From the human T2T-CHM13v2.0 reference genome, Homo sapiens: a stretch of DNA of 64,000 bases. Position numbers and translations under genes: made by a program. Positions 5,060-45,768 of this stretch are shown here, one piece after another; the first letter of the stretch is position 1; every line of letters starts with the position of its first letter. Location: the NCBI RefSeq assembly GCF_009914755.1, contig NC_060925.1; one strand, written 5' to 3'. Below the pieces are notes generated by a model. That model had not been told where the DNA came from. It saw nothing but the letters and a program-made list of their open reading frames with translations, and ran no database searches.

Positions 5060-5403
5060 GAGGAAGCCCATGGGAGGTTTTTCTGCTGATTGTATTTCTA
5101 GTAGCTTCTAGATTTGTAATGAGTCACTTCACCAAAGGATCTAAAATAGGAAACCAACTAATTTCCTGAGTCTATTCCTTTATCTATTTGGAAAAAAAAG
5201 CCTTGAGGAGCATTTTCCCTTTGGATCATAGTTGCTAATTGAGGGAGGGCAGAATGTGTCAGAAGCAATGTGGTCATGGCTCTCTAGGGTGCTAGATAGT
5301 AAAATTACCAAGCAGGCATTGATGCTAATGTGAACCAGAAAAAAAGCTCCTTAATTATACTCATTAGGCCTGTAGCTGATCCAGCCCATACAGAAGAGGC
5401 ACA
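5060..5403 (+). promoter_or_regulatory. OR10R2: Putative OR10R2 promoter and 5'UTR with homeodomain (Lhx2/Emx2-type) and O/E (EBF)-like sites
   Basis: GCCCATGGGA 5066-5075 (O/E-like), TAATGA 5117-5122, CAACTAAT 5155-5162, TGCTAATTGA 5233-5242, CTCTCTAGGGT at about 5280, CTCATTAG 5360-5367. Colinear similarity to 19810-20120 and 43910-44535. Confidence 0.65.
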
Positions 5404-5430
5404 ATGACCACTGTTCTGGGGAGCGAAGTA
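5404..5430 (+). CDS. OR10R2: Putative first coding exon of OR10R2 (MTTVLGSEV)
   Basis: ATG at 5404 with A at -3, exactly 9 codons, then a consensus GTAAGT donor at 5431 (phase 0). This matches the phase-0 acceptor at 13015/13016. Confidence 0.75.
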
Positions 5431-6769
5431 GTAAGTCATTTGTTGCTGTCTTGAAAAATTTTAAGAGACTAGCAGGAAGATGTGTAATATATTGGGAATA
5501 TGCTAGTTTTGGGGAATTACTTAGATTTTTCCTTAAAGGGCCTGGGCCATGATTAAGATATACGGCAACTGCATTCCTCTGTACCCCAGGATTCGTGTTT
5601 TAAAGAAAGTGAAACTCTTTCATATTGGAGATTTGGTCTTTATTCCATAGATGGCTTGCAGAAATTAAATTATCTAAAATCTTAGGACATATTTATGTCA
5701 TTTTAAAGATGTTAGCTAGTTATGCCTTTTATCTTATGTTTAATTCAGAAATTGTTGAGATTTTCTTCAAATTGCAGTCTACAAATACGTGACAGCAAAG
5801 GATTGGAAGGTGGTAATAGGAAAAGTAGCTGGATGGGCAGATAAAATAATGCTCAAGTTGAGATCTTAAGGTCAAGAAAAAAGAACATTAGAGATATTGC
5901 AGAATGGTCAAAAAGGCTATCCCTGGCACCAGTCTTAAGAAGGAATGAAGGAAGAAAGGAAAGAAATATTTAATTAGGGCTTCTTATAATTCTGGGCTAC
6001 ATTTTTTACTTATGTTGTCCATTCATCTTTATAACATCCCATATTACAGAAGAGAAAACTAAGATTCAGGAGGATTAATTTATTTGCTCAAAGAAAATGC
6101 TGAAATAAGAATGTGAATTCCATCTTGAGTGCTTTCTTCATAACATAAATTTTTATCTAGCTTCCTTGATCGCTTGCTGGAAGTATCTTTACCAACTACA
6201 TGAAAAATACCTACAAATTAGTTGCAATGATTTATTTAGGTATTAATTTGCTTAATTATAATTTTGTCAGATTTTGAATATTTGTTCTTGCTAGAAACTC
6301 TGATGCTGATGTGGTTAGAGAGATGTATATAAATGTTTGGTGCATGATACGGAAACTTTTGTCAAATGAACAACATAGTCTTTGATTCTAAGAGCTTAAA
6401 TTGTACCAGGTAAGAATGATCATTGTATAGAATGATCTAAAATGTAAGAAGTCCAAGAATGAGTGTTTCACAAGGGTAAAGATCTTTGGTTTGTTCACTG
6501 TTGTATCTCAAACACCAAATAATGTGTCTCAGATTTAGTAATGTATACAATAAATAGTTTTTAAATTGAAATAGTGCTTGGAAACCTGACTTACAGGGAA
6601 GTGATTTGAAAGATTAGAGGATCTGCCCTAACACAGGAAAAGGCATTGTTGTTATAAGACATGGCTCTTTGCATGTTCAGTGAACTAAGAAGTTCCATAA
6701 GATTAAAACATTGGGATAAAATCTGGGAACTGGAATAAATGTTTGCAGTGTTGTGAGAGATCTAACAGC

Positions 6770-41955: not shown

Positions 41956-43909
41956 CATATATAGGAGACATAAGACTGAGAATGTTTCAGCTTTTTGAAT
42001 TGCTAAGAACATATATTTAAGGCTTTTACCTTCATTTTTTTTTCTGTAATTTGGATAAAGCCAGGCCAATGAAAAAGAAATACAGCACATACAGTGAAAC
42101 TTAATCAAGTAAAACAGAGAAAGAAAAACTAGTTATTCATTCAACAAATATATATGTTACCTTTTTACTATGTATCAGGCAATATCCTAAATGATGGGGC
42201 TAAACATTCAGCAAAACATTAAAAAATCACCCCACAAAACCAGAAATATGTAAAGGAAACATGTAATCATAATTACACAGAAATTCTAACATATGTTAAG
42301 AATAAAAAGTAAATTATAATGGGGATGTTTTTCAGAGGTTGACCTCTCAATGAAGACTGAGCATAATGAAGTAATTCAAGTCCCTTTCTCTGAATATAGA
42401 AATAAAAGATATTCTTTGTTTGCATATTTGAACTGTGTTGGTATATTTGAGATGAAATATGTATCATACTAAGTTTGCTGGAAACCTGGGTTTAAACTCC
42501 AGTTTCAAAAAGGAATGACTATCTTTAATTTCCTGGAAAACTATCCTCAGGTACATGAGAATGTGAGCAGAGGCAGCTACTGGTTTGGGGTCCTGCCTGA
42601 GTTCACCACAAATTGTGTCAAGAAGTATTTCTGTAAGTGTGACTAACTATAGTATTTTTTCCAGGTCTATTTCTGTTCTAATACTTTAGAGGTTTTTGGA
42701 CAGTTTTCTTTCTAGAGTTATGCAGTACCAAGTCTGGGGACTTGGCCAGCATCCTGTGGAGAAATGTTTATTTAGGAAGATGCACTAAGCAGACCAGAAG
42801 TCCAAAAAAAACCCCAAAACTCAGCTGCAAATGGAAAAAAAAAACTTTGTGAACATTTGAAAATTGCTGGAAGCAGCAGTAGCTGCCATGGGATCTCTGT
42901 GGGTAACCTGTGACAATGGTTAGTATAATTGGAAAGAAAAAGACTCTGAGACAGGAATCCTCTCATTTGGGAGTTTCTACTGCTCTGATAGCACCTTCTG
43001 GGAACAATGCCAGGAACGTCTGCTGGGAGCCACTGACAGAAACTGCAACAAATAGACTCAGGCTGGGGAAGACCTCGATGCTAAGTGCCTTCAATTCTCT
43101 CTGCCATCCTCTTGCGAGTCACTCATAACAAGCTGAGGGAGAATAGAGAGGGCAGATTTTTCCTCTGTTATCTCACAGAGGAGGAAGAATAACAATTTCC
43201 AGGAAACTTGAAAATCTAGATACTGTGTTACCGAGTCCAGAAATAAAAAGTTCAACTTTTAACCTAATTTCAAATTCAGGGTCTCACAACAGTGGCACAC
43301 AAATGTAGACAGGTACTTAATTGTTTTCTCTCCAACCCCAAGTCCCTCTCATCTATCTTGAGTCAGACTATTAGAGAGTTGCAGGAAAGAATGAGAATAA
43401 TGGAGGACTACCCAAGCCCTCTAGGAGGTTACCCACAAAGCACTTTACTCCCATTCACAAACGTTGAGGCGGACCCTTGATTGAAGTTATTTTCACCTCC
43501 AGAAAGCTGGAAAAAAGCAGAGTATCACTTCTGTGACCTGCACTTAAGCACTCCAGAATTTGTCTTCAGTCTCTAAATATATATTCTTTCCTGCTGTTCT
43601 TCAAGGTTTCAGCTCTGTCATCAAAACATTGCTCTTTTCCCCGTCCCTCATGCTGTGCTCCTATGCTCCTCTCCTTGGTGCAGCAACTCAATTGTTAGGC
43701 TTCAGATGAACACAGACTAAAAGAGAGAACTTTGCTTCTTTTTTGACAATGATAAAGCAAGACTTTGTCCTGATGAAGTCTAAGGGAAAAAAGAGCTTCT
43801 CCTTCACTAAAAAAGGCCTTGTAAAAGACAGGCCTAAATTATCTCCTATAATGTGGTTTTTCCATATATACTTGTACTTCCTTAATTTACAATAGCTTTC
43901 AGCCTCTAA

Positions 43910-44520
43910 GAGACACCAGGGAACTTGGAAGAGATGATCAACTAATTATCAATGCCATTTTTTTCCATTTTTCTTTTTTTGAGACAGAGTCTCATTTTAT
44001 TACACAGGCTGGAGTGCAGAGGCACAATTTTGGCTCACTGCAACCTCCGTCTCCTGAGTTCGAGTGATTCTCCTGCCTCAGCCTCCTGAGTAACTAGGAT
44101 TACAGGCACCTGCCACCATGCCCGGGTAATTTTTGTGTTTTTAGCAGAGATCGGGTTTCGCCATGTTGGCCAGGTTGGTCTCAAACTCCTTACCTCAGAC
44201 GATCCACCTGCCTCGGCCTCCCAGAGTGCTGGGATTACACGCATGAGCCGCTGTGCCCCACCTTCTGTTTTTTTATTTTATTATTTGTTTCTATTAGACC
44301 TGTGAGATTTTGGATCTGTGGTGTTCTCTGCATCCTCTTTGCTAAGTGAGAGAAGTACGGAACTGTGCCAAAAATAATATTGCAATAATGACTCCCTGGA
44401 GTTTTGGAAAGTATAAGTACCAAGCAACATTTTGGGGCCCTAGCTAATAAGAGACTAATGAAAAGTTTTCCAATGATGCTTTGGGCGATGCTTCTCAGAA
44501 TTATCAGAAGAGCAGGTAGG
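43910..44520 (+). promoter_or_regulatory. OR10R1P: Putative promoter/exon 1 of OR10R1P, interrupted by an Alu
   Basis: CACCAGGGAA at about 43914, CAACTAAT 43939-43946, then the Alu, TGCTAAGTGA 44340-44349, TAATGACTCCCTGGAG at about 44386-44401, TACCAAGCA, GCTAAT, and donor-like CAG/GTAGGT at 44515/44516. Confidence 0.5.
43958..44262 (-). mobile_element. AluS-type SINE
   Basis: T-rich tail followed by a reverse dimeric Alu. Confidence 0.93.
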
Positions 44521-45768
44521 TAAACAGAGTTTGGGGCCTTGAGAGGTCAATAGTAGAAAGGAATAGAATAGTGTTATTTCAATATAGAAATGGTTGTGAT
44601 AACATTAAGTTTTGAGTCTCATCTCATTAGAAGATTTCACTGGATTACAATAGCTAAGTTCTAGGGAACATCAGAAAATAACCCTGTTTGGATTATTTTA
44701 TGTGGGAAAGTGAATGAAGATAGTATGTGAATTTACTAACAGAAAAGTACCAGTCACCATGCTCATTTTAGAAATGCTCTTATTCTCCCGTGAGTTTTAG
44801 TTTGTTTATCTAGTTACTCAGTGATAGTGAGATAATATATGATAGCTTGAAAAAATGGAAGATAGTATAGGGCTTGGGAGAGATAAAATAGAGCCTCACC
44901 AAATGAGCTACAATAAGCTATTGCTTCAAGCAAATGCCATGAAATATGTTATATTGAGCCCATAGCACTGATTACTTCCCTATGAGCCATCTCAGAAAGA
45001 CTGATTCCTTAAGCAAGGCTTCTCTGGGTAACTGAAAAGGAAAAAAATAGATACCCATAACTTTCCGTCAAGAATGAGCTTTCAACAGTTCACTCACTTT
45101 TCATTCTCAAATGTCACATGAGAGTATTATCTGGTGACAAAGGTATATTAGAAATGTCCAAGCAATGAGGAGGTAAAAAAATGAGTGTCTAATTAACTTG
45201 CCATTCTTTACAGACCTTCTGCTGTTTTTGAATCTCACCATCCTAACATTCTGTGGACAAAAAATCTACTGCATAAGCCTCAGAGATAGCAACTGGGGAG
45301 GTAAATAAATTGCACTCCTCAGGGAAGATACTGGTACTATTTTTTTCGTTAGTCACCAGTTAATAAATAAAGTATTGTGAAGAGCCAGACTGAGAGATAA
45401 AAAAGTAAAAATAAAAATAAATGCCACAGTAGGGAAATTCATGAGAGCTAGATCCAGTTCATATTCCACAACTTCTTGGTCGTGTGAAAGATCAAATTGT
45501 GGGTAGTACAATCATAAATATGCAATGTGATCTAGTAGGTTGCAAACTGGATCTTTATTCCCATCAATTTCCTTTTGAGGCTTAAAATTCCATCACACCC
45601 TTAATGAGCTTAAATAATGCCTTTTACAGATGCCCTTTATATAATAAAATATTTAATAATCAACTAATTGAACAAGTAGCTTTTAGATAGCAATTTGTTT
45701 GTAGATATTATGGGGAATACAAAATTACTCCAAGGCCTTTATGCTCTGATATATGAAAAAGTGCATTT

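What the first reader, a model, noticed from the sequence alone, without database searches (positions are those of the whole stretch)
5060..44535. Three paralogous promoter/exon-1 modules, one upstream of each OR10R gene
Seen: three non-repeat blocks share the same ordered motifs. These are CAACTAAT (5155 / 19847 / 43939), TGCTAA(T/G)T (5233 / 19921 / 44340), an O/E-like site (CTCTCTAGGG / CTCCCTGTGG / CTCCCTGGAG), TACCAA.CA...CATT, GCTAAT, and an exon end (CAGAAGAGGCACA / GAGACAGGGCACA / CAGAAGAGCAG). They lie about 7.6, 4.2 and 3.5 kb upstream of the three coding exons. CAACTAAT-to-TGCTAA spacing is 78, 74 and about 80 bp once the Alu is removed. Established: OR promoters use homeodomain (Lhx2/Emx2) and O/E (EBF) sites. 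Inference: the duplication unit included promoter and exon 1, and these footprints mark the functional cis-elements, including for the two pseudogenes.
Basis: partly seen in the sequence, partly recalled or inferred. Interest (0 to 1): 0.75.

Follow-up and report, generated by a model that had tools for sequence, protein, structure and literature searches.

The report
Three ancient OR10R promoter/first-exon copies
Three neighbouring human smell-receptor genes each carry a related promoter-like block from a very old duplication; this is an expected pattern, but the comparison suggests that one gene likely gained its start codon at what was a splice site of its first exon.

Summary
Real, and mostly a known kind. 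Blocks A (before OR10R2), B (OR10R3P) and C (OR10R1P) are mutual best hits among about 416 window tiles, beat 1,056 flanking tiles, and are not a detectable repeat. A holds the annotated OR10R2 exon 1 (5298-5430), so B and C are likely its paralogous promoter/exon-1 copies. OR10R2 groups with marsupial genes, so the split is pre-placental. The rest of the introns and the 3' flanks no longer align, and homeodomain/O-E-type sites are twice as conserved as their surroundings. A-B and A-C exceed a neutral-decay simulation; B-C does not. Corrections: spacing in C is 101 or 56 bp, not about 80; A's 'exon end' is not the end. Where B and C have GT donors, A has the ATG of OR10R2's published 9-codon coding exon. 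That peptide has look-alikes in 6 of 23 placental orthologue models, and afrotherians keep the older internal Met. OR10R2 therefore likely became a 'split' gene by recruiting a start codon in exon 1, not by intron insertion. OR10R1-lineage genes (20 of 21 models lack a main-exon Met) may be an unrecognised split lineage. Module C is likely decaying.

The parts
4918..5883 (+). Module A: promoter, exon 1 and start of intron 1 of OR10R2; stretch that aligns with module B
   Evidence: annotated exon 5298-5430 (hub table)
5155..5162 (+). CAACTAAT, homeodomain-type core, identical in A, B, C
5233..5240 (+). TGCTAATT, homeodomain-type site (G at position 7 in C)
5280..5290 (-). O/E (EBF)-type site, 1 mismatch to the 11-nt core of the published V$NOLF consensus
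5306..5314 (+). TACCAA(G/C)CA block, 16 nt after the O/E-like site in all three modules; factor not identified; inside the annotated exon
5324..5329 (+). second GCTAAT, homeodomain-type core, identical in A, B, C; inside the annotated exon
5404..5430 (+). coding part of OR10R2 exon 1 (9 codons, MTTVLGSEV); its ATG aligns within 1 nt of the GT donor of B and of the second GT of C; donor GTAAGT follows at 5431
13016..13963 (+). OR10R2 main coding exon; TTG (Leu) at 13019-13021 where 4 of 20 orthologue models have Met; N-L-T sequon at 13028-13036 lies before the next ATG (13037)
19588..20533 (+). Module B: predicted promoter/exon 1 of OR10R3P; motifs at 19847, 19921, 19971, 19997, 20022; donor CAG|GTAACA at 20097/20098
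24297..25238 (+). OR10R3P coding region, own ATG, a single in-frame stop (25050-25052)
43900..44525 (+). Module C: predicted promoter/exon 1 of OR10R1P; motifs at 43939, 44340, 44392, 44418, 44443; tandem donors at 44515/44516 and 44519/44520
43963..44262 (-). Alu inserted in module C between the first two homeodomain-type sites (300 nt between target-site-duplication-like copies; Alu identity recalled from its sequence and its matches to other masked copies)
48008..49003 (+). OR10R1P main exon: strong acceptor at 48007/48008, begins V-N-L-W-D-Q-V-N-Q-A-N with no Met; several frameshifts and stops

Best explanation
The three blocks are homologous copies of one sequence; copy A contains the annotated first exon of OR10R2, and B and C are likely the promoter/first-exon units of OR10R3P and OR10R1P, kept recognisable likely by selection on Lhx2/Emx2- and EBF-type sites since tandem duplications older than the placental radiation. 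Shown: homology, position, preferential conservation of homeodomain-core and O/E-type sites, loss of alignment elsewhere in the introns, age from the protein tree. Inferred: each block is an ordinary class II OR promoter that homeodomain factors and EBF dimers occupy when the gene is chosen; B may still fire weakly, C is decaying. [quoted passage not shown]
For: Homology. Not a repeat: one candidate (self) for each block in the genome against 1,509 and 8,431 for two old repeats of the window; the O/E-N16-TACCAA pattern occurs 3 times in 3.1 Gb, only here (pattern drawn from these three). Exon identity. Age: marsupial genes are sister to placental OR10R2 (100/100; SH-aLRT 99); holding all placental OR10R rows together is rejected, p-AU 0.007 (group named after I had seen the trees). 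Constraint: four-fold sites near saturation; A-B 7442 and A-C 3718 exceed all 150 neutral simulations at K 1.3 and above, and A-B also at K 1.1, under both indel rates; remaining intron and 3' flank tiles score like the opposite-strand control apart from repeats and one marginal island. Motifs: 30 of 55 columns in sites defined from A alone are invariant against 76 of 286 outside; 1-2 of 340 circular shifts do as well. Start-codon step: alignments; exon-1-like N-termini in orangutan, lemur, pig, horse, tenrec and gundi models (6 of 23 R2-type proteins); Met at the human Leu position in tenrec, sengi, elephant and white rhino (4 of 20); tenrec has both starts; 7 of 7 marsupial R2-type proteins have a Met 10 residues before the conserved TEF-type motif.
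Against: No binding, accessibility, TSS or junction data for B or C were available. B-C (2497) is at or below the neutral median for its four-fold distance (K 0.85). The four-fold distances have wide intervals (R2-R3 JC 0.78-1.70); at K 0.85 A-B needs no constraint, and at K 1.1 with the lower indel rate some simulations reach A-C. The genome search did not find the paralogous blocks themselves, so a very old low-copy repeat is not excluded. C's O/E match (2 mismatches) is at background frequency (0.73 per 200 bp). The conserved O/E site ends 8 nt before the annotated 5' end, closer than the 100-300 bp reported for human ORs. Aligners anchor on conserved blocks and I had seen the alignment before the motif test. 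Polarity of the donor/ATG change rests on protein models: B and C may be sisters, 17 of 23 R2-type models lack the peptide (8 read through the intron end), and models that have it may have been guided by the human protein. The OR10R1 lineage also lacks a main-exon Met, so a coding exon 1 could be ancestral.
Confidence: 0.8

Rival explanations
1. The blocks are promoter relics whose likeness was refreshed by gene conversion between the tandem genes, not held by selection on single sites.
For: Conversion was proposed for the broad V1R promoter islands (PMC1955453). A-B is the closest pair of modules although R3-R1 is the closest pair at four-fold sites. A-B likeness runs about 450 nt into intron 1.
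Against: Identity is only 66% with many gaps, so any conversion is very old; invariance is concentrated in short motif-like columns in all three; C's lower scores fit decay after loss of function.
Confidence: 0.1
2. The blocks are neutral remnants of the duplicated gene unit, or of one very old repeat that lay in it, and the motifs are what happens to survive.
For: B-C is within neutral expectation and A-B would be at K 0.85; distance intervals are wide; search sensitivity stops near 75% identity.
Against: Non-repeat intron and 3' flank tiles do not align; the surviving island coincides with an annotated first exon; motif columns are twice as invariant; the duplication is pre-therian-split for A versus B/C.
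Confidence: 0.07
3. On the coding exon only: a coding exon 1 was ancestral to the OR10R family (or OR10R2 gained a new intron inside its N-terminus, as the published wording for split ORs implies), and B and C lost or never had the upstream start.
For: 20 of 21 placental R1-type models and one opossum model lack a Met ahead of the N-terminal sequon in the main exon; Barnes et al. describe split ORs as intron insertions; B and C may share one ancestor, so their GT counts once.
Against: The 27 coding nucleotides of A align with the first intron bases of B, and the intron start aligns between A and B, so the intron predates the duplication and was not inserted into a coding exon; marsupial R2-type, all R3-type and afrotherian R2-type proteins have a main-exon Met.
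Confidence: 0.25

Closest known systems
Class II OR proximal promoters with homeodomain and O/E sites (Young et al. 2011, PMC3247239; Olender et al. 2016, PMC4982115; review PMC12547500)
   Same: AT-rich block a few kb upstream of the coding exon, several TAAT cores, one conserved O/E-type site, short first exon; mean TSS-to-ATG distance 4.2 kb in mouse.
   Different: Here conservation is read between paralogues of one subfamily over a pre-placental distance; the conserved O/E site abuts the annotated 5' end; two conserved blocks lie inside the annotated exon; the TACCAA block matches nothing I could test.
Subfamily-specific promoter homology islands of V1R genes (PMC1955453)
   Same: 500-1,000-bp upstream island shared within a subfamily, absent from other subfamilies of the cluster, containing the TSS (here).
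   Different: OR, not V1R; far older and more diverged; two of three genes are pseudogenes.
Split OR genes, including OR10R2 itself (Barnes et al. 2020, PMC7055050, supplementary file 4)
   Same: OR10R2 is listed with 9 residues in exon 1 and a 7,585-bp intron, exactly as in the window.
   Different: That paper found no conserved mouse orthologue for OR10R2, accepted it by similarity, and speaks of intron insertion; here orthologue models from three placental superorders carry the peptide and paralogues show the intron is the older 5'-UTR intron.
Greek Island OR enhancers (Monahan et al. 2017, PMC5608512)
   Same: Same two motif classes.
   Different: No juxtaposed composite: the conserved homeodomain-type and O/E-type sites are 39-44 nt apart; each block sits at a first exon, one per gene.

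Membership tests
OR proximal promoter / exon 1 | Contains the mapped 5' end of the OR transcript | tested here: inconclusive
   Met for A by annotation (5298; tagged 'RNA_Seq_supported_partial'); no 5' exon is annotated for OR10R3P or OR10R1P.
OR proximal promoter / exon 1 | O/E site within about 200 bp of the 5' end | tested here: met
   1 mismatch in A and B (background 0.08 per 200 bp), 2 in C (background 0.73 per 200 bp), same aligned position.
OR proximal promoter / exon 1 | Conserved homeodomain (TAAT-core) sites | tested here: met
   Of 8 TAAT/ATTA cores in A, 2 keep the core in all three modules, 1 keeps CTAA with one change in C, 5 do not.
OR proximal promoter / exon 1 | Splice donor ending a short first exon, acceptor before the coding exon | tested here: met
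   Donor consensus 6/9 (A, annotated), 7/9 (B), 8/9 and 6/9 (C); clear acceptors at 13016 and 48008, several candidates for OR10R3P. Use of B and C donors not shown.
OR proximal promoter / exon 1 | Bound by Lhx2/Emx2 and EBF and sufficient for OSN expression | not testable with these tools
   No ChIP, ATAC or reporter data; promoters are bound only in the few neurons that choose the gene.
OR proximal promoter / exon 1 | Cross-species (orthologous) conservation of the sites | not testable with these tools
   No mammalian genome other than the window's own is held.
Split OR gene (Barnes et al. 2020) | Intact ORF over two exons with transcript support | tested here: met
   OR10R2: 9 + 315 codons in frame.
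Split OR gene (Barnes et al. 2020) | Start Met and junction conserved in other mammals | tested here: met
   Protein level only: 6 of 23 R2-type models; DNA not seen. For the OR10R1 lineage inconclusive: the models' first exons disagree and none of 15 N-termini long enough to test mapped to C.
Interspersed repeat | Many dispersed copies | tested here: not met
   1 candidate each for A, B, C against 1,509 and 8,431 for controls; blind below about 75% identity.
Greek Island enhancer | Juxtaposed Lhx2/Ebf composite motif, intergenic | tested here: not met
   Conserved sites 39-44 nt apart; the published matrix itself was not run.

The most novel reading that the evidence does not exclude
The OR10R module shows how a split OR gene is born without intron gain: an exon-1 splice donor turned into a start codon before the placental radiation, both starts coexisted (as in tenrec), and loss of the internal Met locked the arrangement in. 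The sister OR10R1 lineage, intact across placentals but with no Met in its main exon, is a second, unannotated split OR lineage whose start lies in the module C orthologue.
Probability: 0.45. Interest if true: 0.55.

Novelty: new member of a known kind. Interest (0 to 1): 0.38.

Why it matters
The promoter modules alone are an expected feature of tandem chemoreceptor subfamilies; their use is practical: they point to the unannotated first exons of OR10R3P and OR10R1P and to a short list of sites, one unexplained, for mutagenesis. The by-product matters more: it supports the two-exon OR10R2 protein with cross-mammal evidence that the original curation lacked, tells which N-terminus to clone, and offers a testable origin for split OR genes (start-codon recruitment across the existing 5'-UTR intron), which would explain why their introns match ordinary last UTR introns in size.

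Tried and rejected
Self-BLAST of the window missed the modules; matrix-based local alignment was needed. The genome was not available as a file, so no profile search of the whole genome was run; single-sequence and pattern searches stood in, and they cannot see copies below about 75% identity. Looked for further copies before OR10K1, OR10K2, OR10T2, OR10T1P, OR6Y1, OR6P1, OR10X1 and OR10Z1 in 160 kb of flanks: none among 1,056 tiles. The collinear match 2400-2568 / 18010-18173 is a high-copy repeat, not part of the module. Tried to map the first-exon peptides of R1-type models onto C: 19 tried, 4 too short, none of 15 mapped to C; three mapped to three different places between OR10R3P and OR10R1P, so these models are guesses. 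The four ATGs of the human C exon are in one frame that is out of phase with the main exon at either donor, which counts against C supplying the start, unless the pseudogene has shifted. Short first peptides METEE (degu) and MGNEE (tenrec) resemble codons near the exon end of A, B and C, and the mole model begins like one C frame (MKSF); leads only. The 66-row tree is the quick tree; it used 57 of the 120+ proteins then held (fused OR10J-type models, partials and redundant pig/camel alleles left out); the careful tree used 22 rows. Earlier scan findings were not available. Plessy 2012, Clowney 2011 and Young 2003 were not held; older subscription papers on paralogous OR promoters (Hoppe, Lane, Sosinsky; recalled) could not be read and may describe such blocks. 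bioRxiv supplements were not seen.
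Full report
1. Observation. The window is the human OR10R cluster (hub annotation). The blocks are homologous: A-B aligns over 631 columns with 416 identities and 0 of 500 shuffles reach it; A-C 0 of 500; B-C 20 of 500 under lax gap costs. Against real DNA with HOXD70 scores, each block's best hits are the other two, above every one of 416-418 window tiles and 1,056 tiles from 160 kb of neighbouring OR genes. 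A-B homology spans 4918-5883 against 19588-20533, including about 450 nt of intron 1. Errors in detail: spacing in C is 101 nt (Alu removed between target-site-like copies) or 56 nt (NCBI mask), not about 80; the part of C before the Alu is weak alone; and the 'exon end' in A is 27 nt short of the real one.

2. Not a repeat. Genome searches with A, B and C each return only themselves, whereas two old repeats from the same window return 1,509 and 8,431 candidates. The search is blind at 66% identity, since it misses the paralogues, so an extremely old low-copy element is not excluded. A pattern drawn from the three blocks matches 3 times in the genome, only here, with 1 match for the reversed control.

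3. What it is. A contains exon 1 of OR10R2 (5298-5430; RefSeq and GENCODE). B and C lie 4.2 and 3.5 kb before OR10R3P and OR10R1P and end in GT donors at the aligned place. Eight TAAT/ATTA cores and one O/E match were defined from A alone, with the O/E consensus printed in Young et al. 2011 (PMC3247239; passages and Table 1 read): 30 of 55 site columns are invariant in the three-way alignment against 76 of 286 outside, and 1-2 of 340 circular shifts equal this. I had seen the alignment before, and aligners favour such blocks. The O/E match has 1 mismatch in A and B and 2 in C, where that level is background. The TACCAA block, at a fixed 16 nt from the O/E site, is as conserved and unexplained; no factor library was available.

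4. Age and constraint. Four-fold sites are near saturation (K2P 1.32, 1.49, 0.85; JC intervals 0.78-1.70, 0.88-2.24, 0.53-1.14). In the protein trees marsupial genes are sister to placental OR10R2, the R3 and R1 clades each span several placental superorders, and human OR10R1P falls in the R1 clade; a single placental OR10R clade is rejected (p-AU 0.007; hypothesis chosen after seeing the trees). So A parted from B and C before the marsupial-placental split (about 160 million years, recalled). In neutral simulations (150 per setting) A-B exceeds all runs at K 1.1 and above and A-C all runs at K 1.3 and above, but A-B is ordinary at K 0.85 and B-C is at or below the median for its own distance. 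The internal control is firmer: the rest of the introns and the 3' flanks score like opposite-strand controls, apart from repeats and one marginal pyrimidine-rich island. Constraint is therefore likely for A and for B and C during most of their history, and not shown for C today.

5. Activity of the pseudogene copies. OR10R3P has one stop and intact monkey orthologues. In Barnes et al. (PMC7055050; parts 2-3 of the text, passages, supplementary file 4 whole and rows of files 2, 5, 7) reads were non-zero in 9 of 12 samples for OR10R2, 4 of 12 for OR10R3P and 3 of 12 for OR10R1P, the last two at low values. In Olender et al. (PMC4982115; passages and three supplementary rows) values were above floor in 3, 3 and 1 of 4 olfactory samples and in none of 17 other tissues. 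B may still work weakly; C, with an Alu between its first two sites, is likely decaying.

6. How it likely works. From established work (review PMC12547500, passages; Monahan et al. PMC5608512, passages) about 300 bp of OR promoter with homeodomain and O/E sites suffices for OR-like expression, and such promoters are occupied only in neurons that choose the gene, with help from enhancer hubs. The modules fit that description and lack the juxtaposed composite of enhancers. This step is inference.

7. The coding exon. OR10R2's two-exon ORF (9 residues, 7,585-nt intron) is published, accepted without a mouse orthologue. The paralogues add its origin. A's ATG (5404) aligns within one base of B's donor GT and C's second GT, and A's 27 coding bases align with B's first intron bases. 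Among 23 R2-type proteins, 6 (orangutan, lemur, pig, horse, tenrec, gundi) start with a look-alike peptide in the same register; 8 read through the intron end and the rest start internally or use unrelated predicted exons. At the main-exon position where human has Leu (TTG 13019), 4 of 20 have Met (tenrec, sengi, elephant, white rhino); tenrec has both starts; 7 of 7 marsupial R2-type proteins have a main-exon Met. The simplest order: non-coding exon 1, then ATG at the donor with a new donor downstream, then loss of the internal start, which makes exon 1 necessary to keep the N-L-T sequon. Barnes et al. word split genes as intron insertions but note that their introns match ordinary last UTR introns in size. 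Caveats: these are predicted models, possibly guided by the human protein; no orthologous DNA was seen; B and C may count as one lineage.

8. The R1 lineage. 20 of 21 placental R1-type models have no Met between the acceptor-encoded V-N-x-W-D-Q and the first helix, so the gene needs an upstream start. Their predicted first exons disagree and none maps to C, and the human C ATGs are out of phase. An unannotated split lineage is likely; that C supplies the start is open.

9. Print. Subfamily-restricted promoter islands are described for V1R genes (PMC1955453, passages), and Young et al. filter out duplicated OR promoters as a known fact. Searches for OR10R2 (20 of 21 listed), OR10R1/OR10R3, paralogous OR promoters, OR promoter motifs and split-gene origin, seen as listings, gave no account of these modules or of start recruitment; the library lacks most subscription papers and three relevant ones were not held. 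The Thy-ncR1 paper (PMC3023731, passages) concerns the antisense thymic RNA only.

10. Verdict. Observation confirmed; interpretation partly supported; a new member of a known kind with a modest, testable by-product. Interest 0.38.

Noticed in passing
window 37183-41532 versus 54989-60293 (opposite strand): Two old copies of a long repeat (about 70% identical pieces). Pieces adjacent in the first copy (40991/41040) flank HSP90AA3P in the second (59585/56617), so the processed pseudogene likely inserted into the older repeat.
   Followed up: no
window 33532-33923, 35892-36302, 37368-37787: Three same-strand copies (70-78%) of a 400-bp high-copy repeat within 4.3 kb, two of them not in NCBI's listed mask.
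   Followed up: partly
window 24274-24296: The sequence before the OR10R3P ATG aligns with the Met-less N-terminal codons of OR10R1P and still reads W-D-Q in frame; it also aligns with the intron end of OR10R2, so the three acceptors are not at the same position.
   Followed up: partly
window 984-2268 versus 45851-47156: Two young L1-type fragments 95-96% identical; the second lies in the predicted intron of OR10R1P.
   Followed up: no
window 7534-28018 (- strand): LOC107985213 runs antisense across OR10R2 and module B; a thymus-specific antisense RNA, Thy-ncR1, is described at this locus with no OR10R2 transcript in thymus. Whether they are the same transcript was not checked.
   Followed up: partly
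window 7262-7345 versus 21352-21435: Collinear 84-nt pyrimidine-rich match between the introns of units A and B, score 2458 against a control maximum of 2222; may be chance.
   Followed up: partly
protein P0059 (aye-aye): A model with the OR10R2 exon-1 peptide joined to an R3-clade body: annotation slip or exon sharing between neighbours.
   Followed up: no
window 5066-5076 and 5216-5226: Two further O/E-like sites (2 mismatches) in A only, not kept in B or C.
   Followed up: no
window 31521-31667 versus 32631-32766; 52852-53072: An inverted pair at 87% about 1 kb apart, and a short inverted pair at 90%.
   Followed up: no
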